Assembly (NCBI GenBank): GCA_963677765.1
Contig: OY782392.1
Location: 300,001-332,000, forward strand
DNA from: Candidatus Saccharimonadota bacterium
GTDB taxonomy: Bacteria; Patescibacteriota; Gracilibacteria; BD1-5; UBA6164
Length of the DNA: 32,000 nucleotides
Direction of reading: 5' to 3'
Below, piece by piece: positions 7,308 through 30,290 of the stretch. Position 1 is the first letter of the stretch; each line of letters begins with the position of its first letter. Under the pieces are notes generated by a model. That model was not told where the DNA came from. It did no database searches and worked only from the letters and a program-made list of their open reading frames with translations. The translations under genes and the position numbers were made by a program.

Positions 7308-7310
7308 AAA

Positions 7311-7346
7311 TAAACTCTACATTTTAAGTAGAGTTTATTTTTTTAA
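7311..7346 (+). terminator. rpmE intrinsic terminator
   Basis: Stem taaactctac / gtagagttta, 7-nt loop, T-run at 7338-7346. Confidence 0.75.
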
Positions 7347-7354
7347 AAAAAATA

Positions 7355-7381
7355 TTGACTTATATTTTTTTTATATATAAT
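7355..7381 (+). promoter_or_regulatory. Putative rplJL promoter
   Basis: TTGACT at 7355-7360 and TATAAT at 7376-7381. The spacer is only 15 nt, so the exact -10 is uncertain. Confidence 0.45.
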
Positions 7382-7384
7382 CAT

Positions 7385-7518
7385 AGTACTTTCTATGTCA
7401 AAGACAGTGGGCACAAAATAAGACCTACCGAGATAATAGAGGAATAGATTTTAAATTAGATATAAAGTTTAAAAAACTCTAATCCTTTTTCTTTGACTTA
7501 AAGAAAAAGGATTTTTTA
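7385..7518 (+). promoter_or_regulatory. rplJ 5' leader with terminator-like hairpin (L10-leader-type attenuator candidate)
   Basis: About 180-nt untranslated leader. It contains ...caaagacagtgggcacaaaataagacctaccgag... and a strong hairpin aatcctttttcttt / aagaaaaaggatt (7481-7513) followed by a T-run, ending about 45 nt before the rplJ ATG. Confidence 0.55.
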
Positions 7519-7560
7519 ATACTAGAAAGTAATAGTTTATATTGATAATAAAAAACAACA

Positions 7561-8133
7561 ATGGCTGTTTCAAAACAAAAAAAAGTTGAGATATTTAACG
7601 AATTAGTTGAAAAATTCAAATCTGCTGAATCAATTGGTTTTTCATCTACAAGTGCACTTAGTGTTGAAGATTTTGCAAAACTAAGAACTTCTTTAAGAGA
7701 AGTAGGATCTACTTATACTTTAGCTAAAAAAACTATTATAGTAAAAGCTATAAAAGAAGCTAGAGATATTGAAATTAACTTATCAGACTTAGAAGGTCAA
7801 ATCTGAGTAGTATGTTCTAATGAAGATGCTGTAGCTGGTTTAGGTAAAGTTAACGATTTCATGAAAGCTATAAATAAAGATGCTGATAAAATGGAATGGG
7901 CATTATCTATATTTGAAGGAGAATTAAAAGACAAAGAAGAAACAAAAATAATTGCTTCTATGCCTTCAAGAGAAACTTTACTTGGAAGATTGGTTGGTTC
8001 TATGAAATCTCCTATTTCTGGAATGGCAAGATTCTTTGATGCTGCTGCTAAAGAACTTGAAACTACTGGAAAAGCAAAAGTTAGTGAATTAGAAGGAAAA
8101 AAAGAAGAAACTTCTGAAGAAGAAGCTAAATAA
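7561..8133 (+). CDS. rplJ: 50S ribosomal protein L10
   Basis: The two track ORFs (7561-7806 and 7861-8133) are in the same frame and are joined through a single TGA=Gly at 7804-7806. The 190-aa product has an L10-like sequence and an acidic C-terminal tail. Confidence 0.9.
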
Positions 8134-8140
8134 TTGATAT

Positions 8141-8280
8141 TTGGTTCATTGATTCCCTATTTTTAGGGAGTCATTAACTAGTTATCAATAAAATAACTAG
8201 AATAGTTCATTGTAGAGCTTGATTCAGTGTCTGTTAAGAACTGAATCTAACGGATATTGAACTAAAATTCTACAATGAAA
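8141..8280 (+). other. Structured rplJ-rplL intergenic RNA element (three nested or adjacent hairpins)
   Basis: Hairpins are gattcccta/tagggagtc (8151-8172) and ctagttat/ataactag (8178-8200). A long-range stem ttcattgtaga/tctacaatgaa (8206-8216 with 8269-8279) encloses gattcagt/actgaatc (8221-8247). Confidence 0.5.
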
Positions 8281-8320
8281 TTTTAAAAAATTTTATTTTA
8301 TATTTTTAATTTTTGCAAAA

Positions 8321-8695
8321 ATGGCTGAATTAACAAAAAATGCACAACAAATTATGGACTTAGTTAAAGAATTAACTATAGTTGAATTAAATGACTTAGT
8401 TACTGCTATGGAAGAAGAATTTGGTGTTAGTGCTGCTGCTCCTGTTATGGTTGCTGGTGCTGGTGCTGAAGGTGGAGCTGATGAAAAATCAAGCTTTAAC
8501 GTTGAATTAACTTCTGCTGGTGCTTCTAAAATCGGTGTAATTAAAGTTATAAGAGAAATAACTGGATTAGGATTAAAAGAAGCTAAAGATATTGCTGATA
8601 ACGGTGGTATGATTAAAGAAGGAGCTTCTAAAGACGAAGCTGAAGAAATTAAAGCTAAATTAGAAGAAGCTGGTGCTTCTATCGAATTAAAATAA
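8321..8695 (+). CDS. rplL: 50S ribosomal protein L7/L12
   Basis: 124 aa: ...[23 protein letters not shown]...[27 protein letters not shown]...[14 protein letters not shown]. No TGA codons. Confidence 0.95.
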
Positions 8696-8702
8696 TTCTA
8701 TT

Positions 8703-8738
8703 AAAAAAAGATAAACTTATATAAGTTTATCTTTTTTT
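8703..8738 (+). terminator. rplL intrinsic terminator
   Basis: Perfect palindrome aaagataaactta-ta-taagtttatcttt followed by a T-run. Confidence 0.8.
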
Positions 8739-8862
8739 CTTTTAAATGTTTTTTCTTAACAAAAACTTAACAAAAACTATATTTTTTATAGCATAAAAAT
8801 TGACATAGACTAACATTTTTATAAAATGTTTGAGCTTATAATTATATAATAATTTGATACAT

Positions 8863-9285
8863 ATGAAATATTTATATTCACTAGTATTATTAGTATTCTT
8901 AGCTTCTTGTACAAATGGAGCATGAGTGACTAATGAAGAAACTGTAGATAATGAAAATACTTCTACAGAAGTAACAAACTCTGAAATTGATGAAGCTATG
9001 GAAGAAACTTTTTCAGAAGAAGAATCTAATGAAGGTCTAACTATGTTAGATGCTACATATACTAACCCTCAAGCAGAAATTGATATGAAAATTTACTATA
9101 GCTTAAACGAAGCTAATGAAATTGAAGAAATTTATGCTGAAGCTAGTAATTATGATATGAGTGCATTTAATGAAAATATCCAATATTTAGTAGGTAAAAC
9201 TATGGAAGAAGCAGAAAATGTTTATGTTTCTGGTAGTTCTCTTACTAGTGAAGCTTTCACAAGTGCTATAAAAAATAACATGTAA
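8863..9285 (+). CDS. Acidic lipoprotein with FMN_bind-like C-terminal domain (putative ApbE substrate)
   Basis: MKYLYSLVLLVFLASCTNGAG... has a signal peptide and lipobox LASC, and is joined through one TGA to the track ORF at 8926. The C-terminus ...IQYLVGKTMEEAENVYVSGSSLTSEAFTSAIKNNM resembles the end of FMN_bind domains (..VD.VSGAT.TS.A...A..). Confidence 0.6.
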
Positions 9286-9289
9286 TTAT

Positions 9290-10126
9290 ATGAAAAAATT
9301 TTCTAGAGAATTAATGTGATCAGTATTGAATATAACAATTTATGATAATAATATAGATTTAGAAATTATAGAAAATTGCTTTTTTGAGACTGAAAAATTT
9401 GAAAAAAAATACTCTAGATTTTTAGAAGATAGTTATTTAAGCTTGTTAAATAAGAATAAAAGTTCTCAAGAAATACCTTGAGAACTTTTATCTATTTTAA
9501 AGCTATCAAATAAAGTTTCACAAATTAGCAAATGATATTTTGATATTACTATACTTCCCTTTTTGGAAAATATCTGATATTGAATCAATAAAGAAGAAAT
9601 GAAGGAAGTATATTGATATAAAAATATAGTCATAAATGACAATACTATCAAGTTGGAAAATTGAGTATCAATAGATATTTGATCTGTATGAAAATGATAC
9701 ATTGTAGATAAAATATATAATATTCTTAATGAAAAATACAATGACTTTGTTATAGATTTTTGATGAGATATAAGAATAAAATGAAAACAAAAAATTTATT
9801 TAGAAGACCCCTTACAACTAAGTAAAAACATATGATATATTGAGTTAGAAAATAGCTCAATAGCATCATCATCTTCTAACAGAAGAAAAACAAAAAAATG
9901 ATGACATTTAATTAACCCCAAAAAAAATATAACAGATGATAAATTAGCAGTATATACTATGCATAAATTATCTAGTTTTTCTGATATATTATCAACTGCA
10001 TTATATGTTAGCCCTATAGAAGTTGCTTTAGATATAGTAAAAAAATCTAAATGACTTGAAGCTATGATTATAATGAAAAATTGAAAAATATATAAAACTA
10101 ATTGATTTAATATTAAAAATATTTAA
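9290..10126 (+). CDS. apbE: ApbE-family FAD:protein FMN transferase (no recognisable signal peptide)
   Basis: 278 aa with TGA=Gly: MKKFSRELMGSVLNITIY...SRFLEDSYLSLLN...SKGYFDITILPFLENIGYG...SIDIGSVGKGYIVDKI...VIDFGGDIRIKG...SSSSNRRKTKKGGHLINPKK...FSDILSTALYV. This matches the ApbE motif series. The start is 4 nt after the lipoprotein stop. Confidence 0.85.
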
Positions 10127-13868: not shown

Positions 13869-14090
13869 AAATACCTAGTATATTTTAAATTTTATAAATA
13901 AGTAATAAAAAACGTTAATTTTTAAAACATTCCACTTCGTAAATAAAATATATAAATTTTCAAAAACTTGCCCAATCAAAGATTGGACTTCAAACAGTTT
14001 GAAAATTTATATATTTTATATTTACTTGTTACATTTAAAAATTAAATTTTTTTTATTATCTTATTTAAAAATTAAATACTAGGTATTTTT
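13866..14090. repeat. About 225-bp imperfect palindrome (long inverted repeat) between convergent genes
   Basis: The outer 15 nt, aaaaatacctagtat / atactaggtattttt, are perfectly complementary. An inner perfect 20-nt pair lies at 13945-13964 and 13998-14017. A central mini-hairpin is ccaatc-aaa-gattgg (13972-13986). The arms are about 105 nt and mostly complementary by hand alignment. Confidence 0.8.
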
Positions 14091-15548
14091 ATTTAAGAAA
14101 TTTTCTTTTAATTTTTTAACAGCTTCTATATCAATCTTTTCAAGATTTTTTACAACAAATGGTTGTCTAGTTTTTTTGAAAGTATCAATATTTTCAGATA
14201 CAAAAGACCAATACAAATAATTAAAAGGACAAGAATCACTTTCATACTTATTTTTAACATTATATTCACAATTTGTGCAAAAGTCTGACATTTTGTTAAT
14301 ATAATTTCAACTAGAAATATATGGTTTTGTAGCTAATCTTCATCAATCAGAAAATTGACTCATTCATAATACATTTGGTGAAACTACCCATTCAAAAGCA
14401 TCGCTATATTTTTCAAAGAACCACTTATTAATTTCTAAAGGGGTTACTCAAGTTAATAAGCAATAATTTCATATAACCATAAGTCTTTCTATATGATGTC
14501 AATAACTATTTTCTAAAACTCTTTTAATACTAGTTTTTAAACAATTCATTTTACAACTATCTAAATTTTTTCACCAAAAATATACTGGAAGAGTATTAGA
14601 ATTGTTAAAATAATTATTTTTATAAATATCATCTTTATAAAAATGAAAAAAATGATACATATATTCTCTCCATCAAATAACTTGTCTAATAAATCATTCT
14701 TTGTTATTTATTTCTGTATTTTGATTTTCTATTACAGAAACTACTTCTCTTGGTGACAATAATCAAAAATTTATAGCTGTAGATAAATTAGAATGATAAA
14801 CATAATCATCATTTTCATACATAGCATCCTCCAGTTTTCAAAAGTTTGGAAGATTATTTTTTACAAAATAATTCAATAAAATTATAGACTGTTCCCTATT
14901 TGTAGGATAACTTATAAATCAATCAAAATTATAAAATTTTTTTGCTTCTATTAATCATCTTGTTTCATCTAATATAAGTTGATTAACTGATTTGTGATTT
15001 TTATCAAATCATCTATTATCTTTATCATAATTCCATTTTCATCATATTGGATTATTTCAGTCCATTAAAATATCAAACTTTTTTCTCATATATCTATAAA
15101 AAGTCTCCATAACAGGAGGCTTTTTATATTTTGATAAAAACTCTTTATGACTTAAATAAAAACTTTGATTATCTTCTAAAAAAATTAAATCAATATTATT
15201 TGAAGTTAATTTATCTTTTATCTTTAAAAAATTTTCATAAACATAGTTTTCTACAGGTTTTATAACATAAACTTTTGAGAATCATCATTTATTACAAAAA
15301 TCTAAAATTTCATTGTAATAACTATTTGAGACCTTAAACTCTCATGAAAATCCTTTATTATTTAATTCTTCTATAAAATTATATCACATTGCATAATCAA
15401 ATATTTTTGATTTTATATTCAAACTTAAATTTTCATCATTAAATCTTATATTTCAATTATGATGAATATATAAAAAATACTTTGATAAACTTGTATCAAA
15501 ATAGTTTATATTTATTTGATTATATAATATTAAAAAAAAGCTCTTCAT
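14079..15548 (-). CDS. FeS-BCP type cryptochrome/photolyase ((6-4) photolyase PhrB/CryB-like, iron-sulfur cluster containing)
   Basis: 489 aa: ...GWREYMYHFF...SYGHHIERLMVIGNYCLL...[55 protein letters not shown].... The C-terminal Cys pattern and the PFN.LYW motif are typical of the Fe-S bacterial cryptochrome/photolyase group. TAG at 14079-14081. Confidence 0.85.
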
Positions 15549-15871
15549 TATTTTTTTATTAATTGATTTAATTTATTTTTAGCATCATCTAAATTAGATT
15601 CATAAACAATGATATCATCCTGTAAAATAATTCATTTATCATTATTTTTTAAAAATACTATATTATCCCATCATTTAAAATCACAAACCTTATACCATAT
15701 ATTTAAAAGATTTTCTCTATCTTTAGAGTCTATTTGTAAATATTTATTTTTTAAAGCTAAGTTATACTTTTCTCTTTCATAAGGTCTTAATCTATGTGAT
15801 ATACTTCTAGATCAAATATTAATTCAAGATTTTTTTCATCTAGTTAAATTATCAATATGTTCAAGTTTCAT
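15548..15871 (-). CDS. Hypothetical 107-aa protein translationally coupled to the FeS-BCP gene
   Basis: MKLEHIDNLTRGKKSGINIGSRSISHRLRPYEREKYNLALKNKYLQIDSKDRENLLNIWYKVCDFKGWDNIVFLKNNDKG...*. Its TAA overlaps the downstream ATG by 1 nt (TAATG). No family recognised. Confidence 0.55.
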
Positions 15872-16014
15872 AAAAACTATTTATTAACTAATATTAAAAA
15901 TATATTAAAAAAAAATAATATTTTTGCAAATATACTTAAATATATATAATCTGTATATAGGATTGAAGCCCCTTAGTACATTTAACTATTTTTAAAAAAG
16001 TTATTTGTAAATAA

Positions 16015-17502
16015 ATGAAAAAAGATATACAACTTATTTGGTTTAAAAAAAATCTAAGAATAAAAGACAACGAAGTATTTAATTATTTAGATAGAGATAC
16101 TGAAACAGTCTGATTTTATTTAATAGAAGATGAAATAGTAAGACAAAGAGATTTTTCATACTTTCATTTAAAATTTATTATTGAAAGTCTAATAAACTTA
16201 GAAAAAAATTTAAAAAAACTAAATATAAAACTAATTATAAAAAAATCTAATTTTGAGGATTTTATAATAAATATAGAAAAAGAGTTCAATATAAAAATAA
16301 TAGTTTCAACTCAAGAAACTTGAAATATAGCATCATATAACAGAGATTTAAGAGTTATTAATTTTCTAAAAAATGAATCTATTGATTTTTTAGAAGTGGA
16401 AAATAATTGAGTAGTTAGATGATTAAAAAATAGAGATAACTGGACAAAAATTTGGAATAAAAGAATGTGAAGTGATATTTTTTTAGAAAAGAAATTTAAA
16501 AAATTTAATAATTTTGAGAAAGAGCTAATTCAATCTAAAATAATTCTAGAAAAATATAAAGAAAAAACAAAGCATTTAAAAACTCAAGAATGATGAGAAG
16601 ATAATGCAGTAAAAATTCTAGATAGTTTTTTAGATAATAGGTGTAAAAATTATTCCTATAACATATGAAAACCTTATGAATCAGAACACAGTTGCTCTAG
16701 ATTATCACCATATATAACATATTGAAATATATCAATAAAGTATATTTATCAAAAATCCATAAAAAAAATATTAGAATTAAAGACTGATTTAGATGAAAAT
16801 AATCTCAAAAAAATCAAACAAATAAACTTTTTTTTAGCTAGAATTCATTGGCAATCTCACTTTATCCAAAAACTTGAGTCTCAAGTAGATATTGAGTATA
16901 AAAATTTGAATAAAGAATTTGATAAAATTAGAAATAAATCTGATATAGAAATAATAAATAATTTTTTTAATGCAAAAACTGGTATACCATATTGTGATGC
17001 CGCAATTAAATGTTTAAAAACAACTTGATGGATAAATTTTAGAACAAGAGCATGTTTAGTAAGCTATATATGTAATACAATGATGCAACCATGGCAATCT
17101 ATTTGAAAAAGACTTGCATGCTTATTTACAGATTATGAACCATGAATTCATTATTCACAGTTACAAATGCAATCCTGAACTACAGGAATAAATACCATAA
17201 GAATTTATAATCCAATAAAACAGTCAAAAGAAAAAGATCCTCAATGAAAATTTATAAAAAAATGGATACCAGAATTAAAAGAAATTGATATAAAATATAT
17301 ACATGAACCATGGCTTAGTGATAAAAAAATTGAATGATATAGTAATAAAATTGATATAGAAGAGTTAAACAAAAAAGCAAAAGAAGTATTATGGTCTACA
17401 AAAAAAGAAATAACTAAAGATAAAAAAAATAAAATAATAAAAAAGCATGCTAGTAGAAAAAAAATAAATAATAAAAACAAAAAGCAACTAACAATTTTTT
17501 AA
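16015..17502 (+). CDS. Cryptochrome/photolyase-family protein, divergent subfamily, with lysine-rich C-terminal tail
   Basis: 495 aa: MKKDIQLIWFKKNLRIKDNEVF...SRLSPYITYGNIS...FLARIHWQSHFIQKLE...GIPYCDAAIKCLKTTGWINFRTRACLVSY...[38 protein letters not shown]. The tail is KKEITKDKKNKIIKKHASRKKINNKNKKQ. Confidence 0.8.
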
Positions 17503-17504
17503 AT

Positions 17505-17645
17505 ATGAAAATTTATGAAAGATGACAGTACAAAGAGGCAAAGCTATGCCCTATTTGTAAAAAATATTTTAGTATAAGAAAAAAATGGAAAAATAGTTTT
17601 GAACAAGTAATTTATTGTAGTGATAAATGTAGAAAAAATAAATAA
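17505..17645 (+). CDS. DUF2256 small zinc-ribbon-like protein
   Basis: 46 aa: MKIYERGQYKEAKLCPICKKYFSIRKKWKNSFEQVIYCSDKCRKNK. It has the CxxC...RKKW...YCSxxCR pattern of the DUF2256 proteins that commonly flank photolyase genes. The start is 2 nt after the previous stop. Confidence 0.7.
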
Positions 17646-17731
17646 TTGATATTAGAACTAAAAAAAATATACTATAATTAGTAGACGGATAAAGCTCTCG
17701 CCAATTTGTTTTATCCTATAAAAATAAAAAC

Positions 17732-19051
17732 ATGTACAAAAAATCTATTTTTTGGTTTAGACAAGATTTAAGAACATATGATAATGTTTGACTTTATAAT
17801 GCTGTAAAAAATTCAGAAAAATTATTAGTTATATTTATACTAGATAAAAATATAATAAATGATTTTTTATGATTAAACGATAAAAAATTCTGATTTATAA
17901 GAGAAGCTTTGGAAAGATTGGATTCTGAGATAAAAAGTTTATGATGAGAATGATTAAAAGTTTTTTATGATAAACCTGAAACCTTAATTCCTGAACTAAC
18001 TAAAAAATACAATATAAATGCAGTATTTACTAACAGATCATACTGAAATTATTGAAAAAAAAGAGATGAAAGCATTAAAAATACTTTATCTAAAAGTAAT
18101 ATTGAATTTTTAAGTTATAAGGATTACTTACTAGTAGAACCATGGGAAATAGAACAAAGAAAGGTATTTACACCATTTTATAAACTATGGCAAAAGATAG
18201 ATTTTGATACTAATGAGTACAAAATAACTGATAAAATAGACTCAATAAAAATAGAAGAAAATAATAAGGCAAAAGATTATATTTCTATAGAAAAACATCC
18301 TTATTTTACAATGGATTTTTGAGAAAAAAGACTGGAAAAATACATTACAACTGATTATGATTTATATAGAAATGACTTAGATAAAGACTGAACATCAAAA
18401 CTATCACCATATCTTAGATTTTGAATATTTTCTGTAAGACAAATATATAATTTAGCAAAAAATATTAACCAACATTTTGTTTCAGAAATGGCTTGGAGAG
18501 AATTTTGGCAACATATTGATTACTATTTCCCTGAAACTAAAAAAATAGAATTTCAAGAAAATAAAAGACATATAAAATGGAGACATGATGAATACTTATT
18601 TGAAAAATGGTGTAATTGAGAAACTTGATATCCTGTTGTTGATGCTGCAATGAAACAATTAGTAGAAACCAATTGGATGCACTGAAGAGCTCGTATGATA
18701 GTTTCTAGTTTTCTAACAAAAGATTTACTTATAGATTGGAGATGGTGAGAAAAGTTTTTTAAAAAACATTTACTAGATTATGATGAAAATGTAAATTATT
18801 GAAACTGGCAATGGTGAGCATCTGTATGAGCTGATCCAAAGCCATTACGTATATTTAATCCTATACTTCAATCACAAAAATTTGATAGCCAAGCTAAGTT
18901 TATAAAAAAATATATACCTGAACTAATAAACCAAAATACAAAAGCTATCCATGACCCAATAGATAATGAATTAGATTATACTAGAATAATAGTTAATCAT
19001 AAAGAGGCTCAAAGAGAAACTAGATTAGTTTATAAATGAGAAAAAGACTAA
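17732..19051 (+). CDS. phr: Deoxyribodipyrimidine photolyase (class I-like or Cry-DASH-like CPF member)
   Basis: 439 aa: MYKKSIFWFRQDLRTYDNVGLYNA...TSKLSPYLRFGIFSVRQ...MAWREFWQHI...[37 protein letters not shown]...[31 protein letters not shown]. Confidence 0.88.
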
Positions 19052-19068
19052 AAAATTAGTCTTTTTTT
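19041..19068 (+). terminator. phr intrinsic terminator
   Basis: aaaaagacta-aaaaat-tagtcttttttt. It is nearly identical to the terminator at 11621-11650 and again includes the codons K-D-stop. Confidence 0.75.
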
Positions 19069-19125
19069 GTTGTATAAAAAAGATATGATAAAATATTATT
19101 AAATATACAATTTAATAATACTATT

Positions 19126-20697
19126 GTGTTCCAAATAAAAACAATAAATATTCAAAACTTTAGAAGCATAGATTTTCAAACAATAAATTTTTGAAAAAAT
19201 AAAACAGTTCTAGTATGAAAAAACAGCAGTTGAAAAACTGTGATTTTAAAAGCAATTGAAAAGTTATTAAATTCAAAAAAAATAAAAAGAAAAGATTTTT
19301 TAAACAAAAACAAAAAATTAATAATAGAAGCTATTATAGTAAACAAAGGTAAAGAAGTTTCTATAAAAATAGAATCTATATTTAATGAAGAAAAGCAAGA
19401 AGCAAATACAAAAAAAATAAATTTCAACAACGAAATTGAAAAAATAATAGAAAAAATAAATGTTATATATATACCTAGTGACAGAAAAATAAACAAAGAC
19501 AATAAGGAGAATTGATATATGAAACTTATTGACCTAATATTAAAAAACAAAGAAATAAATCAAAAAAAATCAATATATACTAAAAAAGAAGTAAAAAAAC
19601 TAAACAAAAAATCTTGAAGAAAGAAAACAACTCTATTAATAACTCTTTTAAGACTATATTTATATAGTATAAATAATAAAAATAACAAAGATTTTACAGT
19701 TTTTATTATTGATCAACCTGAAAACTTTTTGCATCCACATGCAACAAAAATGATTGATTCTATACTACAACAAATATGAGAATTAGAAAATACACAAATA
19801 TTTTACTGTACTCATTCACCTGAACTAGTTTCAAATTTTAGAAAATGAAAATATGAAATTTCTGATATATTATTCGTAAAAAATGAATGAGGGATAACTA
19901 AAACTCAAAAAATTGATAACAGATATTGAAGATTTAATAAAATAATGATAAATTTAATTTTTAAAAATGCTTCTATATTTTTCTCTGATGCTGTTATACT
20001 AGTAGAATGAGAAACTGAAAAGATATCTATACCAAATATATATGAAAATATAAACTGGAATAATTATTCTAAAATAAATAAAAAAAATATATCAAAAGAA
20101 GAAAAAATTAATTACTTTAACTTGAATCATAAAAATATTAGTGTTATTGATGTTTGATGAAAATGAGCACTATATGAGTGGTATGTTTTTGCTTGTGAGT
20201 TATTTTGAAGAGAAAATGTTATAGCATTAATAGACAGAGATGAAAATTTCTATATAGATCGTGATATGATTATAAAATCTATTAGAAAAATATATAAAAC
20301 ATGACCTATTTTTGAAAATGATTTCAAAAAATATAATTGGATAGTCTTAAATTGAGAATTTGAAAACTATTATAAAATTGATTCTATAAAAACATATATT
20401 ACAGAAGTTATTACTTCTAGAGCTGAAAAATTTTGAGAAGATTTCGATCAAGAAAAATTTGATTTAAGTTTAGATAAATTAGATTCAAGATTAAAAAAAT
20501 TAAAACAATCAAAGAAAATATCTAGTGAATATGAAAGGTTATTTAATTCATATTTTAGAAAATATTCAAAACCTACTATAGCATTTAATTTATCAACATG
20601 GTTAGCACAAAATAATTGATATGATGAAGAATTATTAAAAATATTTGCAAATATGATTGAAAAATTTGATAAAAATGAATCTAAAAATAAAAAATAA
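19126..20697 (+). CDS. OLD-family ATP-dependent endonuclease (ABC-type ATPase + Toprim), stand-alone
   Basis: About 523 aa: (V/M)FQIKTINIQNFRSI...LVGKNSSGKT (P-loop), FIIDQPENFLHP (Walker B-like), YCTHSPELV, then Toprim AVILVEGETEKISIP (20002-20019) and ALIDRDEN. The start is uncertain between GTG 19126, which gives the canonical N-terminus, and ATG 19084. Confidence 0.75.
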
Positions 20698-20755
20698 TTA
20701 TTCACTATTTTTAATAGTAAATAATATTAAGAAATAGGATTATATTTATTAAACT

Positions 20756-20788
20756 AAAAAAGAAGTAAAAATTATTTACTTCTTTTTT
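20756..20788. terminator. Bidirectional terminator between convergent genes
   Basis: aaaaa-agaagtaaa-aatta-tttacttct-ttttt, with an A-run upstream and a T-run downstream. Confidence 0.7.
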
Positions 20789-20791
20789 GTT

Positions 20792-21322
20792 TTAAGAAAA
20801 ATTATATATTATATTGTTACTCAATAAATAAAAAGATATAAATAAACTTAATATAAGTCAAAAAATAAAAAAAGAAATAGCATAATTTCTATCAAACTCC
20901 TTTATTGATTTTTTTAAGTCTTTATGAGTTTTATGAAATTCAATAATTCTATCCTCTATTCAATTACTAGTATTTTTAGATATTTTAATGTCTTTTTTAC
21001 TTAAAGATTTAAATATATTATTAATAATAACTATAAAAAATATCACAAAGAAAATAACAGGCACAATAATAGTAAAAAATCATTCATCTATTAATCACAA
21101 AAATAAAGAATTAAATACTACATAAAAAAATATTAATCAAGAAAATATTCAAATAAAGAATAGTCATGTTGCTCATAATTTATTTATTACTACATTAATA
21201 ATATTTTCCTTCTCTTCTTTTTTTAATTTTGATAATTCATTTTCTAAATATTCATAATCAATACCGTATTTTTTATTTTCATTTTTTGATCTAAGTTTAT
21301 CAAATATAGATTTATTATTCAT
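20792..21322 (-). CDS. Hypothetical membrane protein (176 aa, about 4 TM)
   Basis: MNNKSIFDKLRSKNENKKYGIDYEYLENELSKLKKEEKENIINVVINKLGATGLFFIGIFSGLIFFYVVF.... Uninterrupted with TGA=Gly; no family recognised. Confidence 0.55.
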
Positions 21323-21331
21323 ATATAAAAA

Positions 21332-21366
21332 AATTAAAATATATAAAATTATTATATATTATTTTA
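21332..21366. repeat. 35-nt AT-rich repeat, copy A (upstream of the 20792-21322 gene)
   Basis: aattaaaatatataaaattattatatattatttta. 34/35 identical to the copy at 23057-23091. Confidence 0.7.
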
Positions 21367-21378
21367 TAAAAAGTACAC

Positions 21379-21407
21379 AAAAAAGCTAGATAAACTCTAG
21401 CTTTTAA
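21379..21407 (-). terminator. Hairpin after lemA
   Basis: aaaagctaga-taaact-ctagctttt, immediately downstream of the LemA stop on the minus strand. Confidence 0.6.
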
Positions 21408-21409
21408 AA

Positions 21410-21994
21410 TTATTCAAATAGTTGTTTTACATTAGGTGCAATATCAGATCACTCTCATGCTTCAAATACAGGTTTAGCTCATAAATCAAAAATTCCTGAT
21501 ATAATATTATTTGGAAATTGTCTTACTAAAGAATTATATTTCATAACTTCTTCATTATATCTACCCCTCTCTGTTGAAATTCTATTTTCTGTTCATTCAA
21601 GTTGAGTTTGTAAATCTGAAAATAAAGGAGCTGCCTTTAGGTCAGGATAATTTTCTTGTAATAACATTAGTTTAGAAAGAGCTTGAGTTAATTCTCATTG
21701 ACTTTGATAAAAAGCTTTAAAATCTTCCAAATTATTTATATCAACTTTTATACTAAGAGCCTCACTTCTAGCTTTTACAACTGACTCCAAAGTTTCTTTT
21801 TCATGTTCGGCATATTTTCATACAACAGCTACAAGTTGTGGTACAAGATCTGCTCTTCTTTGATATTGATTTTCAACCTGACTCCATGCAAGTTTTACTG
21901 ACTCATCAAGAACAACAAAATTATTATATCTTCATATAAGAGTAGTTATAAGTAATACTGTTAATACTCATAATGCTATCCAAAATTTTTTCAT
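21410..21994 (-). CDS. lemA: LemA family protein
   Basis: 194 aa with an N-terminal TM helix, then ...YNNFVVLDESVKLAWSQVENQYQRRADLVPQLV...ENRISTERGRYNEEVMKYNSLVRQFPNNIISGIF, the characteristic LemA sequence. Confidence 0.88.
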
Positions 21995-22054
21995 AATTTT
22001 TAATTTATAAATTAATATTAATATTATAATATTTTTAAAGTAATAATCAATATT

Positions 22055-22966
22055 TTACCATTTTCATCTACTTCATCATCATCCAAAAGATCAACCAGAA
22101 TATCTTCTAGATTTTGATTTCCTTGAATATGATGATTTTCTATAAGAAGATGAAGATCAAGAATATCAAGATTGATTTGAATAATCAATAAAATCAAATA
22201 TTTTGGAAATTATAAATTGAATAATTATATTTAAAAGTAATATAAAAAAAGATAAACTTAGGTAAAAAATAAATACAGAAGAAATAATAATAATTATAAG
22301 TAATTTTATATTTCTCTTCTTTTTATCTTCTTTTTTCTTATAAATACCCAATATATTATAAAATAAAGGAAAAAATAAAATAGACAAAAAAACAAATGAG
22401 AAAGAAAGAACTAAAGTTGATCAGAAATCATTTTTATTTTGTTGTGTATTATTATATTTAGAAATTATACTTTGATCTAATAACAAAAATCATCTTATAT
22501 CACTTAAAGCAGAAGATATTCAAGAATAGTAGTCTCATATTTTAAAATTATTTGGAAAATTTATCTCTCAGATACTTTTTGTTCTAATATCAGGTAAAAT
22601 TCCTTCTAATCAATATCAAGTAGAAATATTCCATTGTTTATCATCTATTGCTATTAATATAACAAGACCATTATCCTTATCAGCTTTACCTACTCACAAA
22701 GTTTGTCATATATCAACTCAAAGCTTAGATATATCCTGTCATTGTGTAGATTTTATTATAGCTACAAATATTTCAGCTGTAGTTTTATTCCCTATATCTT
22801 CTATTTTTTGATTAAGGTTATCTATCTGCTCACTATTTAAAATTCAAACTTGATCAACAACATATGAATTTTTTCCATTTAAGGAATTTATATCAAACTG
22901 AGAATTAGATATACCAAAAGATAAGCTATAAAAGAAAAGAAACAAAAATAATAATATTTTTTTCAT
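22055..22966 (-). CDS. TPM-domain protein (YgcG-like) with TM segments and G/S/R-rich tail
   Basis: 303 aa: signal peptide, ...YVVDQVGILNSEQIDNLNQKIEDIGNKTTAEIFVAIIKST...VGKADKDNGLVILIAIDDKQWNISTGYGLEGILPD..., two TM helices, then tail ...RRYSGGSFGGGGSRGKW. The track ORF 22166-22387 is an in-frame piece of it. Confidence 0.82.
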
Positions 22967-23056
22967 AATGTATTTATTTAATATATAAATTTATAGTACA
23001 AAAAAAAGCTAGAAAATCAATTATGATTAATCTTAGCTGTTATTAATAGTTAATAA

Positions 23057-24992: not shown

Positions 24993-27900
24993 TTATTTAT
25001 TGTCATCTTCTGTCTTTAACCAGTCTGGTATCTTCATTCAATCATCCCATAACTCTGTTGAGTCTTGAGTTTTTTTAGTTTTAGAATCAGAAGTTTTATC
25101 TTCTTTTTTTACAGACTTTTTAGTTGTTTCTTTAGATGAAGTAGTAGATTTATTATTAGACTTAGTCTTGTCATCTTTTTCTGATTTTTCTTCTTTTTTA
25201 TCAGTAGAATTATCATCAATTGATTTATCTAAATCTTTATTATCTTTTTTATCAGATTTTTCATCTGACTTTTCAATACTTCATTTTAACCAATCTGGTA
25301 TATTATCTTCTGAAGTATCTTCTTCTTCGTCTAAATCTATTTTAGTAAGATTATCTAAATCTTCTTTTGTATCCATTTTCGGTAAAGATTCTTCTTTTTT
25401 AATAGAATCAGATTTATTATTAATAGAATCTTTTTTATCTAAATCAGAATCAGAGTTAGAATTTATTTCTTCTTTAGATTTAGAAGATCACACTTTTGTT
25501 AAATCTTTTTTATCTAAAAGGTTTTTAGATTCTTCTTTTTTATCAATTTTTATATCCTGCTTTTTAGGATTTTTTTCTTTAACAATTTCTTTTTCTGATT
25601 CTTTACTCTCAACACCTTCATCTTCATCAAAACTTCCCTTTAACCAATCTGGTATTTGGGATTTAGTTTCAGTTGAAGTAGTATTAGTAGCAGCTTTATC
25701 TAAATTAGGTTTATATGTTTCTACTTTTGTATTATCAATTTTTTTAGATTGTTCTTTATCATTATTTAAAGATATTTTTGTATCATTTTTATTATTAGAA
25801 CTATCTAGTGGTTTATTGATAACTGGATCACTTATTTTATTTTCTTTAAGATTATTTTCCTTAGGTTTAGTATCAAAACTATCATCAAATCATCATTTTA
25901 ACCAATCTGGAACATCTCAAGAATTAGTATTTTTAATATTATCCTTTGTTTCTATATTATCATCTTTTTTGTCTTGTTTATCAGTTCAAGTTAGAGGATC
26001 TTTTATATCATTATTTGATACATTTTCTTTTGGTTTATCATCATAAGAAAACGGATCAATAAATTCATCTTTTGTAGATTCATTATTAGGTGATACTTCT
26101 CATGATAAAGGATCAATATTATCTGATTTTTTTTCTTTTATAGTATCATCTCAAAGAATATCTCATAAATCAGAAATATCGTCTTTTACAGTTGAATTTC
26201 AACTAGATTTTCATCAAGTTTTTTCTGAAACAAATTCTGAAAAAGACTTATTTTTATCTTTATTAACAAGTTTATAATAAATAAAGAACAATACAATTAC
26301 AAATGTAAATAATAATATTATATAAAATATAATTTTTAATATAAACAATATTGCATCAATAACTCATGATCAACCTGTAGTTCAACCGATAACTTCATCA
26401 TTTTTAGCAACCTCTTCTTTTTCTTGTTCAGGTATATTATTAACACCTCAATATACAAATGTATTTAATATTGCCTTGAAATCATTTTTTTCTTTTACAG
26501 ACATATTTGGATCTTCAGCAACATTTCTAAGAATTTGTTTTCATAAAACTACATTTTCTTCTACATTATCATTTTCTGATATAACTTCTAATTTTGCAAC
26601 CAATAATTGATAACAAGTAACATTTTCTCACTCAACTTCTAATGATTCTTCTTCGATACAAGCTATATTAGTTGGTAACATGTTTTTTAATGCAGTTAAA
26701 GCTATTGCTTTTTCTGTTCTATCTGCTTCACCATCAACTAATAATCATTCTAATATATCTATTATTTCTGCAGAAGAAGATAATCATGACTCATCTAAAT
26801 AAGTAGAAAATTCTAAAATAACATTAGTTTTTTCTCTATTATCATTCCATGCTTCTTTTAATCTTTGAACATACATTAATCATTTTAATTTATGTTCTTT
26901 AGGAAAAGAATCTACTTTATTTTTAATTTTTTCTAATTGTAATTTTACTGAATCAGAAACTCATTCAAAAACTATAGAACTTGAATCAATCATTTCATCT
27001 TCCTCAATATATTCTTTTAATATAATTATATCTCTAGAATTTATAACTTTTCAAGATGAATCTTTAGTAAATATTCTTAATTTTTGTTCTCTAAATTCAT
27101 TTAATTCAATTTTTAAAGGATTTCATGAAAAGTAACTATTATCATTCTTGTTATCTTCATCATCATCATTTCATCAATTCAAATCACTATCAATTTCAAT
27201 ATCATAATCTACAACATAATTTTCTGCTTTATCATCAAATGCAAAATATAAGAAAACATTATCAATTTCATCTTTTAAAGTAATAATATTATCTTCTATT
27301 TCATTATTTGAAATAACTGGAAAATCTTGTTTTCTAATATTTATTATATTAGCTACATTTTTTGTAACTTTTTTTGTTATATCTCTTATTTTAGTTCATT
27401 CAGTTAATTTTAATTTAACTAAATGTACATTTTTTGCATCTTCATATGTATAAACAAAAGATCCGTTAGTAGTAATTTTATTTCAATCTCACATATCCCA
27501 TTCATACTCAGCTCAAACTCATAAACTTTTATCAAAGAATATATAAGTATTACCATAAGAGTAATAATCAAAATCTGGCTTTAGTATATTTGATACATTT
27601 ACAGTAACTGTTTTAGTGTTTGAGAATCATTTATTTGATACTTTTACTTTTGCTCTTTTTTCTCAAGAACTATTATAAGTATAAGTAGTTACATTACTTG
27701 TTGTTTCTTTATCATAAAATCAATCCCCATCAAAATCCCAAGAAAATTTTACTTTATTATTTAAATTTTGTCCTAATATATTCTCTGCATTTGCTGAAAA
27801 AGTAACTTCATCACCTATTCAAACAGATGAATTATTTACAACTAAATCTAATAAAGGTGTATTTACATTATCTCATGTAAGAGTGATAAAGTATTTTGAA

Positions 27901-30290
27901 CCTGTTATCTCTTCTGAAATAGATCTTTCTTCATTGTTGTCTTTCATTACTACAACAAAATAGTAATTTCAAGTAATTTTAGGTAAAACAAATGAAGTAG
28001 AATCAGTTTTAGTAGCTCTAAAATCTTGAGGCTCAGGGTCAACATCAGTATAGTAATACCATAAATAAGATTGTATTACACCATCTCTATCTTGAGCTCA
28101 AAGAGCACTAATATTAACAATTACTGGATCAGTTTCAGTGTCTTTTACTCTTACATCTAATCATGATAAAGTAGGTTTAATATTTTCAACTTTTATATTT
28201 ATTGTTTTTGAGTCTTCTCTTCAGTTTTTATCACTTTTTACAACTAATTTTAATTGTTCACAACCTAATTCATCAAATTTTTTATTAAAAGATTGAGAAC
28301 TATAAATAGAACGTCATAAAGTCCAAGAATATGATAATCATGAATTTTGTCATGTAATATCTAAACTTTCTTCTCAAGAAAATGTAAAATTATCTACCCT
28401 GTTAACTAAATATGCTCATTGTCATCCACATGCTCTTGGATCAAATGCAACTTCATTTCATTTAGGATCTTTCAAAGTTATATATGCATAAGGAGAGTCA
28501 GTATCTCAAATATATACATTTCTAGTTAAAGTATTTTCATTATCATTACTATCAATAACTTTTAATTTAACTCAATATACTCATGATTTTTTAAATACAT
28601 GAGAAATAGTTCAATTACTTCAACCTTCTTTTATTCAATCTCCAAAATCCCATTCATAAAATTTTGCCTCTGGAGAATCCGCAATAAATCTTATAGTCTT
28701 ATCTCTTTGCGATACTCTAGGAAAAATATTAAAATCAACGGATAAAATTGATCTAATATCTACCTTAGTATTTTTTTGGTTAACTATTCCTTCAGGATCA
28801 GTTACTTCTAATGTAACAGAATGTTCTCATATAGAATCAAAAGTATAATATCAATTAGAACCATTATAATTAGGTCTATCTAGATTTACTCTGTTTCAAT
28901 CAATTACCCAACTAAACTCTAATTTTCAATCATCAGAATAATCAGGATCATAAGATGAAGATCAATCTAAAAATACTGTATTAGGTCTATGAGAATCTGT
29001 AATACTATGGCTAAATTCAGCTACTGGAGCTCTAGAGTTTATATATATAATTTTTGTATCTATATCTACCTCTCCTGAAGGTTCAGTAACATATAGCATA
29101 ACATTATATATTCATTTTTCTGTGAAAGAATAATTAAAAGTAGAAGAAGATTTATTTAATATTTCTTCATCATTTTTTATATCAATTATTCTCCATGAAT
29201 AAGTTAAATATTCATTTCTAGAAGTAGGATTAGCAGTAAAAGTAAAAGTATCTCACATATATCCTTCATCAGAACTAGCTTTTATAGTAGCTATAGGATT
29301 ACTAACTATTAAATCAAATTCCCTTTTTACAGTTTTTCATTCATTAGTTCTAAGTTCTAGAGTTACATCAAATTCTCACTCATTAGCATATACAACTCTT
29401 TCAACTTTTGGAGCTCAATCATATGTTCTTTCAACTCAATTACCAAAATCCCAACTAGTTCTTGTAAATTTAGTTCAAGATGTAGGAGTAGAACTTGTTG
29501 CATCAAATAATAATCAATATTTTGCTTCTTCTGGTGAAAATTTTAATTCATCTCTATTTCATAGATTATCAGAATTAACTTTTACTATAACGGATGCTAC
29601 TTTTTCCTTTACAGAAACTGTAACTCTTGAAGAAAATGGTAAAACATCAGTGAATCATTGAGAATTTTTATGATTAGATGTTACATCTAAAAATACAGAA
29701 TAATTTCATTCTTCATTAAAAGTATAATTGATAGAAGACCTATTTCACAATACTTTTCTTTTTCATCAATCATTAATCCACCAAGTATAATTATAGTTTT
29801 CTAATTTTGTTCAAGTAGGATCTTCAACATTTCATCTAAGAGTAACTGTTAAAGGAGCATTTCAAGTAGAAGGAAATGATTCTATATTACCTCTGATTTT
29901 TTGTATATTAACTTTGTTTAAATAGTCCTCTATTGAACTAGATATAGTTTGAAATTGAGAAGAGTTTTCAGGATATTTTAATCCTCTTTCTATAGAACTT
30001 TTTAAAGAATTATAGTAATTTTTATTAATCAAATTATCAGGAAGATAATTAAGTCAATTTTTTGCTAACTCTAAAATCCTTGCTGAAACAACCGAGTCTA
30101 TAACTCAGTTTACTTCAAATTTATTTTTTAAATCAATATATTGATCAGTTATTCTATATCTATATTCGTTAAACGTATTTAGATCAGAAGGAGTAATTGT
30201 CGTATACTCAGTATCAGCAGCACTAACATAAGTTGGTGCTATAGCAGATATAATCAATATAAATAATGTAGTTAGTACTTTTTTAAACAT
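24993..30290 (-). CDS. Giant (1765-aa) secreted multi-PKD-domain protein with C-terminal TM anchor and K/D/E/S-rich tail bearing four PDWLK motifs
   Basis: I checked every codon of the frame from 30290 to 24993 and found no TAA or TAG. Signal peptide MFKKVLTTLFILIISAIAPTYVSA/AD. About 8-9 repeats of roughly 90 aa carry PKD signatures (APLTVTL, TSWDFGNG, YEWDFGDG, FSWDFDGDG, YEWDMGDG). These are followed by an acidic helical region, a TM helix (about 26270-26365) and a tail of about 430 aa. Confidence 0.85.

What the first reader, a model, noticed from the sequence alone, without database searches (positions are those of the whole stretch)
19126..20697. Stand-alone compact OLD-family nuclease as a candidate single-gene defence locus
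The protein has the OLD/GajA-type layout. It has an N-terminal ABC-like ATPase (IQNFRSI, GKNSSGKT, IIDQPENFLHP, CTHSPELV) and a C-terminal Toprim domain (ILVEGETEK, LIDRDEN). At about 520 aa it has a short, K/N-rich insertion region. It is flanked by its own terminators and has no UvrD-like helicase (GajB), reverse transcriptase or other known partner next to it, so it fits class 1 OLD nucleases. Defence genes are sparse in CPR genomes, so a lone OLD nuclease beside the DNA-repair cluster is worth testing. An alternative is a role in DNA repair, given its neighbours.
Basis: partly seen in the sequence, partly recalled or inferred. Interest (0 to 1): 0.5.

Follow-up and report, generated by a model that had tools for sequence, protein, structure and literature searches.

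The report
Conserved stand-alone OLD nuclease in Gracilibacteria
The gene is a real stand-alone OLD-family ATPase-nuclease, but it behaves like a long-resident, vertically inherited chromosomal gene of recoded Gracilibacteria that has lost the glutamate normally needed to hydrolyse ATP, so it looks more like a domesticated nuclease gated by ATP binding than a mobile anti-phage module.

Summary
Window 19126-20697 (+) encodes a 523-aa protein under code 25 (18 in-frame TGA=Gly) with an ABC-type ATPase and an OLD-type Toprim domain. No helicase, reverse transcriptase or AriB-type partner lies nearby, and stable hairpins flank the gene. The "defence locus" reading is only partly supported. The gene belongs to an orthologue group found in at least 31 Gracilibacteria species genomes, always among housekeeping genes. 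Its divergence tracks that of its neighbours (r=0.95 with photolyase). Its dN/dS of 0.03-0.21 is as low as or lower than that of TruB, photolyase and signal peptidase. No orthologue was found on viral contigs, phages or plasmids. Its nearest outgroup relatives sit in defence islands, in operons with Type III R-M-like genes, and keep the canonical Walker-B catalytic Glu. The solo Gracilibacteria clade replaced that Glu with Gln (fixed in the compact clade) or His, the same change as the engineered AriA E393Q mutant. It also lost about 50 aa of the ATPase insertion. All Toprim metal ligands are intact. It is Class 1 by context, but its Toprim/C-terminal half resembles GajA. Adjacency to photolyase is subclade synteny, not an obligate pairing. 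The most likely reading is a domesticated two-metal nuclease gated by ATP binding. Whether it serves resident immunity or a cellular role like that of Cran1 or YbjD is unresolved.

The parts
19040..19075 (+). Terminator-like hairpin plus T-run ending the upstream photolyase gene. It separates that gene from the OLD gene.
   Evidence: RNA fold dG -10.2 kcal/mol, z -4.97, 0 of 200 shuffles as stable; sequence.
19126..20697 (+). OLD-family ATPase-Toprim nuclease gene: GTG start, TAA stop, 523 aa under code 25, 18 in-frame TGA=Gly.
19126..19977 (+). N-terminal ABC-type ATPase head (residues 1-284).
   Evidence: Pfam AAA_15 and AAA_21. The N-terminal half alone scores best with PADLOC 'Old', 86.6 bits. 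Rad50, SMC and PtuA heads appear among the fold matches.
19216..19239 (+). Walker A / P-loop GKNSSGKT (K37). Both glycines are encoded by TGA.
   Evidence: K37 is conserved in every aligned row of A2; one outgroup row has a gap there.
19471..19485 (+). Q-loop region IPSDR. R120 is invariant and takes the place of Ts OLD H140, a position where Arg is common in Class 1.
19486..19680 (+). Shortened, K/N-rich helical insertion in the ATPase (residues about 121-185). It is the counterpart of the OLD dimerization domain.
   Evidence: Three helices with a low-confidence linker in the model. The span from Q-loop to Walker B is 75-81 aa in the compact clade, 125-130 in the long form and 135 in Ts OLD.
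19699..19737 (+). Walker B plus D-loop, VFIIDQPENFLHP: D196 (Walker B), Q197 (codon CAA, 19714-19716) at the canonical catalytic-Glu position, H203 (D-loop).
   Evidence: Alignment to Ts OLD E276, E277 and H283. Wild-type AriA reads DEPE and the engineered E393Q reads DQPE. E393A is ATPase-defective. Family distribution.
19807..19818 (+). H-loop CTHS (H230, equivalent to Ts OLD H310).
19978..20373 (+). OLD-type Toprim nuclease domain (residues 285-416). Metal A ligands are E294, D370 and D372; metal B ligands are E298, E411 and E413.
   Evidence: Pfam PF20469 7.1e-13. Residue mapping to Ts OLD E377/D431/D433 and D381/S478/E480. Conservation.
20374..20694 (+). C-terminal helical domain (residues 417-523, five helices) carrying the invariant K464 (KKIS) and K482 (KPTIAF). 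Ts OLD has no such domain; it resembles the Class 2 C-terminal domain.
   Evidence: Model secondary structure. Only GajA profiles align through this region. Invariant columns.
20750..20792 (.). Bidirectional terminator-like hairpin, with an A-run before and a T-run after, between the convergent OLD gene and the membrane-protein gene at 20792-21322 (-).
   Evidence: dG -13.9 kcal/mol, z -5.64; sequence.

Best explanation
This is a chromosomally fixed, vertically inherited ('domesticated') stand-alone OLD-family enzyme of code-25 Gracilibacteria. Shown: it has a complete ATP-binding ABC head (P-loop Lys, Q-loop Arg, Walker B Asp, D-loop His, H-loop His) and a complete two-metal Toprim nuclease site, and it has no conserved neighbour gene. 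Shown: the canonical Walker-B catalytic Glu is replaced by Gln, fixed in the compact clade, and the ATPase insertion is about 50 aa shorter than in relatives. Inferred: the head binds ATP-Mg but turns it over very slowly, so it works as a nucleotide-binding switch or clamp, as in E-to-Q ABC ATPases. Binding-only inhibition of the GajA nuclease is a precedent. Nucleotide state or a nucleic-acid ligand would then control access of the Toprim site to its substrate, which could be DNA nicking or cleavage, or tRNA as for P2 OLD. Inferred: the family moved from a multi-gene, defence-island setting into a solo core-like locus. The gene now serves a conserved cellular function rather than acting as a mobile defence cassette. 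That function could be a nucleic-acid transaction or surveillance, in the manner of archaeal Cran1 or E. coli YbjD/OldB.
For: Family and fold. Catalytic residue conservation and the E-to-Q/H replacement: 22 of 29 loci read DQPE, 5 DHVE and 2 EEPE; basal relatives read DEPE; 8 of 8 outgroups have Glu. The NJ tree shows Q in all 25 compact-clade sequences. Meaning of the position: AriA E393A is ATPase-defective, and deposited AriA structures carry E393Q, which reads DQPE, against wild-type DEPE. Binding-only regulation has a precedent: AMP-PNP inhibits Gabija cleavage. Vertical, core-like behaviour: 31 species-genome loci, including two complete genomes. There are five or more synteny groups made of housekeeping genes: EF-P, EarP, ZnuBC-like, PilT-like, Sua5, RsmG, TruB and photolyase. 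Pairwise identity correlates with PHR2 at r=0.95 and with SPase at 0.86, and dN/dS is 0.03-0.21, no higher than the neighbours. No orthologue was found in 2.9 M viral contigs, 50,697 phage records or 72,556 plasmids. No conserved adjacent partner exists. Origin: the basal, Glu-retaining relatives lie in operons with a Type III MTase and a Type III REase-like helicase, or a DrmMI-like MTase and a Schlafen ATPase, next to HTH_17, PIN and PDC-S18 genes. Precedents for non-defence or core OLDs: Cran1 and YbjD.
Against: Every experimentally characterised bacterial OLD protein has an anti-phage phenotype, and the closest relatives are in defence islands. A sensor that guards a conserved host feature would not need to evolve fast, so strong purifying selection does not exclude immunity. 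Whether the gene is core could not be established: six photolyase-anchored related loci lack OLD within 7 kb, and whole-genome presence or absence could not be scored. The role of the residue after the Walker B acid was tested in AriA but not in a fused OLD protein; in Ts OLD only E276 was mutated. Two long-form members carry EEPE, so the site is not uniformly lost. The structure was modelled on a 75%-identical orthologue, not on the window protein. No expression or biochemical data exist.
Confidence: 0.45

Rival explanations
1. It is a resident single-gene anti-phage system, a Class 1 OLD acting by abortive infection. The hydrolysis-impaired ATPase head senses nucleotide depletion or an aberrant phage nucleic-acid structure and releases the Toprim nuclease on phage or host DNA, or on tRNA. 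It is kept in the chromosome because CPR genomes have few other defences.
For: The best PADLOC model is 'Old', followed by many GajA and AriA models. The closest outgroup relatives are embedded in defence islands. [quoted passage not shown] Class 1 OLDs are typically not found in defence islands. Nucleotide binding alone gates the GajA nuclease. All nuclease residues are retained.
Against: Inheritance is syntenic and the gene co-diverges with its neighbours. Its dN/dS is equal to or lower than that of housekeeping genes. No orthologue is mobile or viral. The protein is more conserved than TruB or photolyase in the same genome pairs. Loss of the catalytic Glu and compaction coincide with the move out of the defence-island context, which suggests a change of role.
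Confidence: 0.35
2. It is functionally coupled to the neighbouring photolyase cluster, acting as a UV or DNA-damage repair nuclease that processes lesions or ends alongside PHR2, CRY and DPRP.
For: OLD lies directly next to the 3' end of PHR2 in two diverged subclades (65-84% and about 50% identity) despite an inversion of OLD. OLD and PHR2 identities correlate at r=0.95.
Against: A stable hairpin with a T-run separates PHR2 and OLD in the window. In group B the two genes are convergent, so they cannot share a transcript. In group A', EF-P and EarP lie between them. Groups C, D and E place OLD next to PilT/cNMP, Sua5/RsmG or ZnuC/HlyD, with no photolyase. Six photolyase-anchored loci with adequate flanks lack OLD within 7 kb. 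The correlation is what two vertically inherited genes would show anyway.
Confidence: 0.07
3. It is one component of a multi-gene system whose partner, for example a UvrD-like or ResIII helicase or a methyltransferase, is encoded elsewhere in the genome. On this view it is a dispersed Gabija-like or R-M-like system.
For: The Toprim/C-terminal half aligns along its full length only with GajA profiles. Basal relatives are sandwiched between a methyltransferase and a helicase or ATPase. In long-form group C a cNMP-binding gene always lies directly upstream on the same strand.
Against: No conserved partner lies within 8 kb in any of the five synteny groups. Known OLD partner genes are tightly linked. 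Whole genomes could not be scanned.
Confidence: 0.1
4. It is a decaying relic of a former defence gene and no longer has enzymatic function.
For: The canonical catalytic Glu is lost and the insertion domain is shortened.
Against: dN/dS is 0.03-0.21. The reading frame is intact in all complete loci. [quoted passage not shown]
Confidence: 0.02

Closest known systems
Thermus scotoductus OLD (PDB 6P74), the structural archetype of Class 1
   Same: A single-gene ATPase-Toprim fusion of almost the same length (528 against 523 aa). It is the best sequence and fold match in the PDB. It shares the P-loop Lys, Walker B acid, D-loop His, H-loop His and the metal A and B ligands.
   Different: Ts OLD has EE at Walker B where the query has DQ. 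Ts OLD has a 135-aa insertion between the Q-loop and Walker B (75 aa here) and only about 48 aa after the metal-B motif (110 aa here, forming a helical domain). Only about 15% identity over the fold alignment.
GajA (Class 2 OLD of Gabija; PDB 8SM3, 8X5I and others)
   Same: The fold match is nearly as good as for Ts OLD. Only GajA profiles align through the Toprim and C-terminal helical region. In GajA, nucleotide binding alone is enough to gate the nuclease, which is the regulatory logic proposed here.
   Different: There is no GajB/UvrD-like helicase next to the gene in any of 31 loci. The ATPase half scores better with the 'Old' profile.
AriA of PARIS (Class 4), in particular the engineered E393Q mutant
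   Same: An ABC head of the same family. The Walker B of the E393Q mutant reads LIDQPE, identical in that motif to the query's IIDQPE, and E393A is ATPase-defective.
   Different: AriA has no fused Toprim, because its nuclease AriB is a separate protein. Wild-type AriA keeps the Glu.
Cran1 (Class 5 archaeal OLD, Saccharolobus islandicus)
   Same: An OLD-family protein conserved across a whole lineage, with helical elaborations in its Toprim region. It is apparently not a defence gene, and its ATPase domain matters more than its nuclease for the phenotype.
   Different: Cran1 is archaeal, retains all ATPase active-site residues and hydrolyses ATP. Its essentiality and cell-cycle role were shown experimentally, whereas nothing comparable is known here. 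Sequence relatedness to Cran1 was not tested.
E. coli YbjD/OldB and phage P2 Old (Class 1)
   Same: They are isolated genes. YbjD is chromosomal, convergent with its neighbour, and ATP binding modulates its activity. P2 Old shares 28% identity over residues 183-350.
   Different: P2 Old is prophage-borne, senses RecBCD status and cleaves tRNA. Both are reported with conserved Walker A/B motifs (P2 Old Walker B D299). The Gracilibacteria clade has no orthologue on phages or plasmids.

Membership tests
OLD family (ABC ATPase + Toprim nucleases) | N-terminal ABC-type ATPase with a P-loop, Q-loop, Walker B acid, D-loop and H-loop | tested here: met
   Pfam AAA_15 and AAA_21 exceed their cut-offs. 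K37, R120, D196, H203 and H230 align with Ts OLD K34, H140, E276, H283 and H310 and are conserved across the family.
OLD family (ABC ATPase + Toprim nucleases) | C-terminal OLD-type Toprim domain with two-metal ligands (metal A: E, DxD; metal B: E/D plus S/D/E-x-E) | tested here: met
   PF20469 scores 7.1e-13. E294, D370 and D372, together with E298, E411 and E413, are conserved in all family members.
OLD family (ABC ATPase + Toprim nucleases) | Overall fold matches solved OLD proteins | tested here: met
   The model of the 75%-identical orthologue P0003 (pLDDT 88) matches 6P74 at 6.6e-17, GajA at 5e-16 and the Eco8 OLD at 1e-14. The window protein itself could not be submitted.
OLD family (ABC ATPase + Toprim nucleases) | Canonical catalytic Glu immediately after the Walker B acid (hhhh[D/E]E-P-E) | tested here: not met
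   The query reads D196-Q197. All 8 outgroup OLDs and the basal relatives have Glu at this position.
OLD family (ABC ATPase + Toprim nucleases) | Conserved Lys/Arg that completes the nuclease site (Ts R487, Bp K562, GajA K541) | tested here: inconclusive
   K417 and K422 near the ExE motif vary. K464 and K482 in the C-terminal domain are invariant within the family.
Class 1 OLD | Isolated gene with no adjacent helicase, retron or AriB partner (the context definition) | tested here: met
   Window neighbours. Across 31 loci the adjacent genes vary and are housekeeping genes.
Class 1 OLD | Structural signature of Ts OLD: no Insert-3 helix between Toprim alpha3 and beta4, and no C-terminal helical domain | tested here: not met
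   The model has a helix at 394-400 between alpha3 and beta4, and five helices (415-512) after the metal-B motif. The signature is taken from Schiltz 2020. Only GajA profiles cover this region.
Class 2 OLD (GajA / Gabija) | [quoted passage not shown] | tested here: not met
   No helicase lies within 8 kb in any locus.
Class 3 OLD (retron effector) | Adjacent reverse transcriptase and msr/msd ncRNA | tested here: not met
   No RT is present among the neighbours. No ncRNA search was made.
Class 4 (PARIS AriA/AriB) | ATPase and Toprim nuclease encoded as two separate proteins | tested here: not met
   A single ORF carries both domains.
Class 5 (Cran1-like, non-defence OLD) | Lineage-wide conservation, essentiality, cell-cycle function | not testable with these tools
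   Conservation, synteny and purifying selection are shown. Essentiality and function need experiments. Sequence relatedness to Cran1 was not tested.
Anti-phage defence system (generic) | Located in a defence island or mobile element, with patchy, horizontally transferred distribution | tested here: not met
   The context is housekeeping, the gene co-diverges with its neighbours, and no orthologue is present in viral, phage or plasmid collections. The basal relatives do meet this feature.
Anti-phage defence system (generic) | Confers protection against phage | not testable with these tools
   This needs a recoded gene and a phage challenge.

The most novel reading that the evidence does not exclude
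A defence-island OLD nuclease was captured by the ancestor of a recoded, genome-reduced Gracilibacteria lineage. It was then converted into a core, non-hydrolysing ATP-switch nuclease with a housekeeping role in chromosome or RNA transactions. That would make it a bacterial counterpart of archaeal Cran1, marked by a natural Walker-B Glu-to-Gln change and a shortened dimerization insert.
Probability: 0.3. Interest if true: 0.7.

Novelty: new variant of a known kind. Interest (0 to 1): 0.5.

Why it matters
OLD nucleases are currently treated as anti-phage effectors, with one recent exception, Cran1, which is archaeal and essential. A bacterial OLD lineage that is vertically inherited in very small, recoded genomes, is more conserved than tRNA pseudouridine synthase, and has naturally fixed the substitution that researchers introduce at this position in ABC ATPases would matter in two ways. 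It would be a natural experiment on what the ATPase head of OLD proteins does when it only binds nucleotide. It would also be a test case for immune genes being domesticated into cellular functions in CPR bacteria. Practically, automated tools such as PADLOC and DefenseFinder would label this gene 'Old' and count it as a defence system, so counts of CPR defence systems would be inflated if it is not one.

Tried and rejected
(1) The table-11 ORF list is fragmented and unusable; I switched to code 25. I modelled the 75%-identical orthologue P0003 instead. (3) The whole-chain Foldseek search does not separate Class 1, 2 and 3. The C-terminal 115 aa alone match no PADLOC model. (4) The consensus terminator scan found nothing, an artefact of its G-C criterion; folding resolved the question. 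(5) RecF, RecN, SMC and MADS3 assignments were rejected because all are far below curated cut-offs and cover only the P-loop or Walker B segments. (6) I initially read the AriA PDB chain as having a natural DQPE. That was wrong: 8v46-49 are E393Q mutants and wild type reads DEPE. (7) An obligate photolyase-OLD pairing was rejected by the reciprocal, photolyase-anchored metagenome scan. (8) The search for clean 'empty sites' with identical synteny but no OLD found none, so core versus accessory status remains open. (9) A hidden small partner gene downstream was rejected, because the downstream genes are unrelated between synteny groups. (10) Viral-contig, phage and plasmid searches found only remote family-level matches. 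(11) A literature search found no report on OLD genes in Gracilibacteria.
Full report
OBSERVATION. Under the standard bacterial code the region 19126-20697 breaks into short ORFs. If TGA is read as a sense codon, a single frame runs from GTG 19126 to TAA 20695-20697 and encodes 523 aa with 18 in-frame TGA. Code 25 (TGA=Gly) is the right reading. TGA occupies both glycines of the Walker A motif GKNSSGKT and the glycine of the Toprim motif VEGETEK, where every aligned standard-code outgroup OLD has Gly. In addition, 18 of the gene's 20 Gly codons are TGA.

Profile searches confirm the family. Pfam gives AAA_15 (7.7e-16), AAA_21 (2.4e-14) and OLD-like_TOPRIM (7.1e-13), all above their curated cut-offs. 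RecF, RecN and SMC_N fall below theirs. The best PADLOC model is 'Old' (7.5e-34), followed by many GajA models. The closest solved structure by sequence is the Class 1 OLD of Thermus scotoductus, 6P74. A confident AlphaFold model of a 75%-identical orthologue (pLDDT 88.2, pTM 0.87) matches 6P74, GajA and the retron-Eco8 OLD at E 1e-17 to 1e-14.

Stable hairpins followed by T-runs flank the gene: 19040-19075 (z -5.0) and 20750-20792 (z -5.6). The neighbours are three photolyase-family genes upstream and a membrane protein, LemA, a TPM-domain protein and TruB downstream. None is a helicase, reverse transcriptase or separate Toprim nuclease.

WHAT THE RELATIVES SHOW. A protein search returned about 70 full-length relatives forming a smooth identity gradient from 95% to 30%; those that carry a source name are labelled Gracilibacteria or Peribacteria. 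Below that there is a sharp drop to generic OLD proteins, from E 1e-48 to 1e-16. A scan of one genome per species found the orthologue at 31 loci from Gracilibacteria-type genomes, two of them complete.

Gene-order analysis under code 25 resolves at least five synteny groups. Their neighbours are housekeeping genes, confirmed by Pfam.
- Groups A and A' have DPRP, CRY, PHR2 and then OLD, with EF-P and EarP inserted between PHR2 and OLD in A'.
- Group B has ZnuC-like, ZnuB-like, OLD, and then PHR2 and DUF1722 on the opposite strand.
- Group C has PilT-like, a cNMP-binding protein and OLD.
- Group D has OLD followed by Sua5 and RsmG on the opposite strand.
- Group E has ZnuC-like and HlyD-like genes on the opposite strand, then OLD.

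No gene immediately upstream or downstream is conserved across groups. OLD identity tracks that of its neighbours: r=0.95 with PHR2 over 66 pairs and r=0.86 with signal peptidase. Its dN/dS of 0.03-0.21 equals or is lower than that of PHR2, TruB and signal peptidase in the same genome pairs. No relative was found among 2.9 million viral contigs. Phage and plasmid collections give only remote matches of at most 31% identity over about a third of the protein, including P2 Old itself. This is the signature of a vertically inherited, core-like gene, not of a mobile or patchy defence cassette.

PHOTOLYASE LINKAGE. OLD abuts the 3' end of PHR2 in two diverged subclades. Read in reverse, arrangement A differs from arrangement B only by an inversion of OLD. 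However, a hairpin separates the two genes in the window. In group B they are convergent, in A' two genes intervene, and groups C to E have no photolyase nearby. A reciprocal scan anchored on PHR2 found OLD nearby in only 3 loci (L035, L036, L040), while six informative loci (L039, L044, L045, L047, L050, L058) lack it within 7 kb. The adjacency is best read as retained ancestral synteny.

THE ATP SITE IS NOT CANONICAL. I aligned the query to Ts OLD and used the mutational data of Schiltz et al. 2020.
- The query keeps the P-loop Lys (K37), the Q-loop residue (R120; Arg is common there in Class 1), the Walker B acid (D196 = Ts E276), the D-loop His (H203) and the H-loop His (H230).
- It also keeps all metal-A ligands (E294, D370, D372) and metal-B ligands (E298, E411, E413).
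- The residue immediately after the Walker B acid, which is the canonical ABC-ATPase catalytic glutamate (Ts E277), is Gln (Q197, codon CAA at 19714-19716).

In the related AriA ATPase, E393A at this position is ATPase-defective. The deposited AriA structures 8v46-49 carry the engineered E393Q, reading LIDQPE, whereas wild type (8v45) reads LIDEPE. The Gracilibacteria protein therefore carries the E393Q-type substitution naturally.

Across the family, 22 of 29 complete loci read DQPE, 5 read DHVE and 2 read EEPE. The basal relatives read DEPE, and 8 of 8 outgroup OLDs have Glu. On an NJ tree Q is fixed in all 25 compact-clade sequences, and the site varies (H, Q, E) only in the long-form group C. 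The codons are connected by single steps, GAA to CAA to CAT. The compact clade also lost about 50 aa of the ATPase insertion, the counterpart of the OLD dimerization domain: 75-81 aa between the Q-loop and Walker B, against 125-130 in group C and 135 in Ts OLD.

CLASS. By the context definition this is Class 1. Structurally it is not like Ts OLD. The model has a helix between Toprim alpha3 and beta4 and a five-helix C-terminal domain of about 105 aa. Schiltz et al. describe both features as absent from Ts OLD and present in Class 2. When the protein is split, the ATPase half scores best with 'Old', but the Toprim/C-terminal half aligns end to end only with GajA profiles.

ORIGIN. The basal relatives that retain the catalytic Glu are not solo. 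P0063 lies in an overlapping operon between a Type III methyltransferase (9e-83) and a Type III restriction-enzyme-like ResIII helicase, with HTH_17, RadC and a PDC-S18 defence candidate upstream. P0066 lies between a DrmMI/Type IIG-like methylase fragment and a Schlafen/AlbA_2 ATPase, next to PIN and HTH_17 genes. The transition from a defence-island, multi-gene setting to a solo gene in a housekeeping setting coincides on the tree with loss of the catalytic Glu, and compaction follows later.

MECHANISM. Shown: a complete nucleotide-binding head lacking the canonical catalytic Glu, a complete two-metal Toprim site, no linked partner, strong purifying selection and vertical inheritance. Inferred: the head binds ATP-Mg but hydrolyses it poorly, so it acts as a binding-controlled switch or clamp, and the Toprim site is gated by nucleotide state or by a nucleic-acid ligand. 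Binding-only control has a precedent in Gabija, where AMP-PNP inhibits cleavage. YbjD is another, since ATP binding modulates its toxicity. The substrate cannot be decided from sequence: it could be DNA nicking as in Vc OLD and Cran1, or tRNA as in P2 OLD.

BIOLOGICAL ROLE. I favour a domesticated cellular function of the Cran1 or YbjD type (0.45) over resident single-gene immunity (0.35). The reasons are the core-like evolution and the functional shift that accompanied the exit from the defence context. The family precedent for defence is strong, however, and a guard-type sensor of a conserved host feature could also evolve slowly. Coupling to photolyase (0.07), an unlinked partner (0.1) and a decaying relic (0.02) are less likely.

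NOVELTY AND LIMITS. This is a new variant of a known kind: an OLD-family subfamily with a natural Walker-B Glu-to-Gln change, a shortened insertion, a GajA-like C-terminus without GajB, and lineage-wide vertical inheritance in recoded CPR bacteria. I found no literature on it.

Several limits apply. Whole-genome presence or absence could not be scored. The window protein itself could not be modelled. The Lys/Arg that completes the nuclease site could not be assigned, and K464 and K482 are the candidates. The functional weight of Q197 rests on AriA and on general ABC-ATPase knowledge, not on a fused OLD protein.

Noticed in passing
window 14079-19051: There is a cluster of three photolyase/cryptochrome-family genes: DPRP 14079-15548 (-), a CRY/photolyase-like gene 16015-17502 (+) and PHR2 17732-19051 (+). 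A conserved 107-aa gene with no Pfam match (15548-15871, -) abuts the DPRP start. That small gene travels with the cluster in L005, L007 and L016 and in L039, L040 and L045.
   Followed up: partly
window 20792-23000 and the equivalent position in L001, L004, L005, L006, L013, L021: The segment between OLD and TruB is a local gene-turnover hotspot. It holds a membrane protein, LemA and TPM in the window, a BCCT-type transporter in L005 and L021, a 1236-aa protein in L004, and other unrelated genes elsewhere. OLD and TruB/SPase on either side stay fixed.
   Followed up: partly
L023-L029 (group C), about 7100-7950 in each locus: In the long-form clade a roughly 280-aa cNMP-binding-domain gene always lies directly upstream of OLD on the same strand, with gaps of 11-77 bp, preceded by a PilT-like ATPase. 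It could be a clade-specific partner or just synteny.
   Followed up: partly
L026 and L028 (OLD genes at about 8000-9740): Two long-form members read EEPE at Walker B while their sisters read DHVE or DQPE. This is either retention of the ancestral Glu or a reversion, and it makes a natural contrast pair for testing the role of the site.
   Followed up: no
window 19513-19515 (residue 130): The window has TGA (Gly under code 25) at a position where long-form and basal relatives have a genuine Trp (motif NWYxKL). This implies a TGG-to-TGA change at an otherwise conserved aromatic position.
   Followed up: no
window 24993-30290 (-): A giant, roughly 1765-aa predicted surface protein is conserved in relatives (cluster c7). 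It has an N-terminal signal-like segment, many repeated beta-rich modules, a transmembrane segment near residue 1340, and a K/D/E-rich tail with five copies of an 'IPDWLK' motif, four of them 'PDWLKG'.
   Followed up: no
L115 2595-10070; L118 981-6057: The basal OLD relatives define apparently undescribed gene arrangements. One has PDC-S18 and RadC upstream of a Type III MTase - OLD - Type III REase-like helicase operon; the other is PIN - HTH_17 - DrmMI-like MTase fragment - OLD - Schlafen/AlbA_2 ATPase. An OLD nuclease inserted inside a Type III R-M-like operon may be a defence system in its own right.
   Followed up: partly
L002-L007, L013, L035, L040 (between PHR2 and OLD): These Gracilibacteria carry an EF-P/EarP pair (EF-P arginine rhamnosyltransferase), inserted between the photolyase and OLD in one subclade.
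   Followed up: no
protein database rows P0001, P0002, P0008 and others: Many public translations of these orthologues carry Trp at TGA positions because they were translated with code 4. Others are truncated by code-11 gene calling, for example P0059 at 322 aa from the complete genome CP060226, which is labelled Peribacteria. Public annotations of this family are therefore systematically wrong or fragmented.
   Followed up: partly
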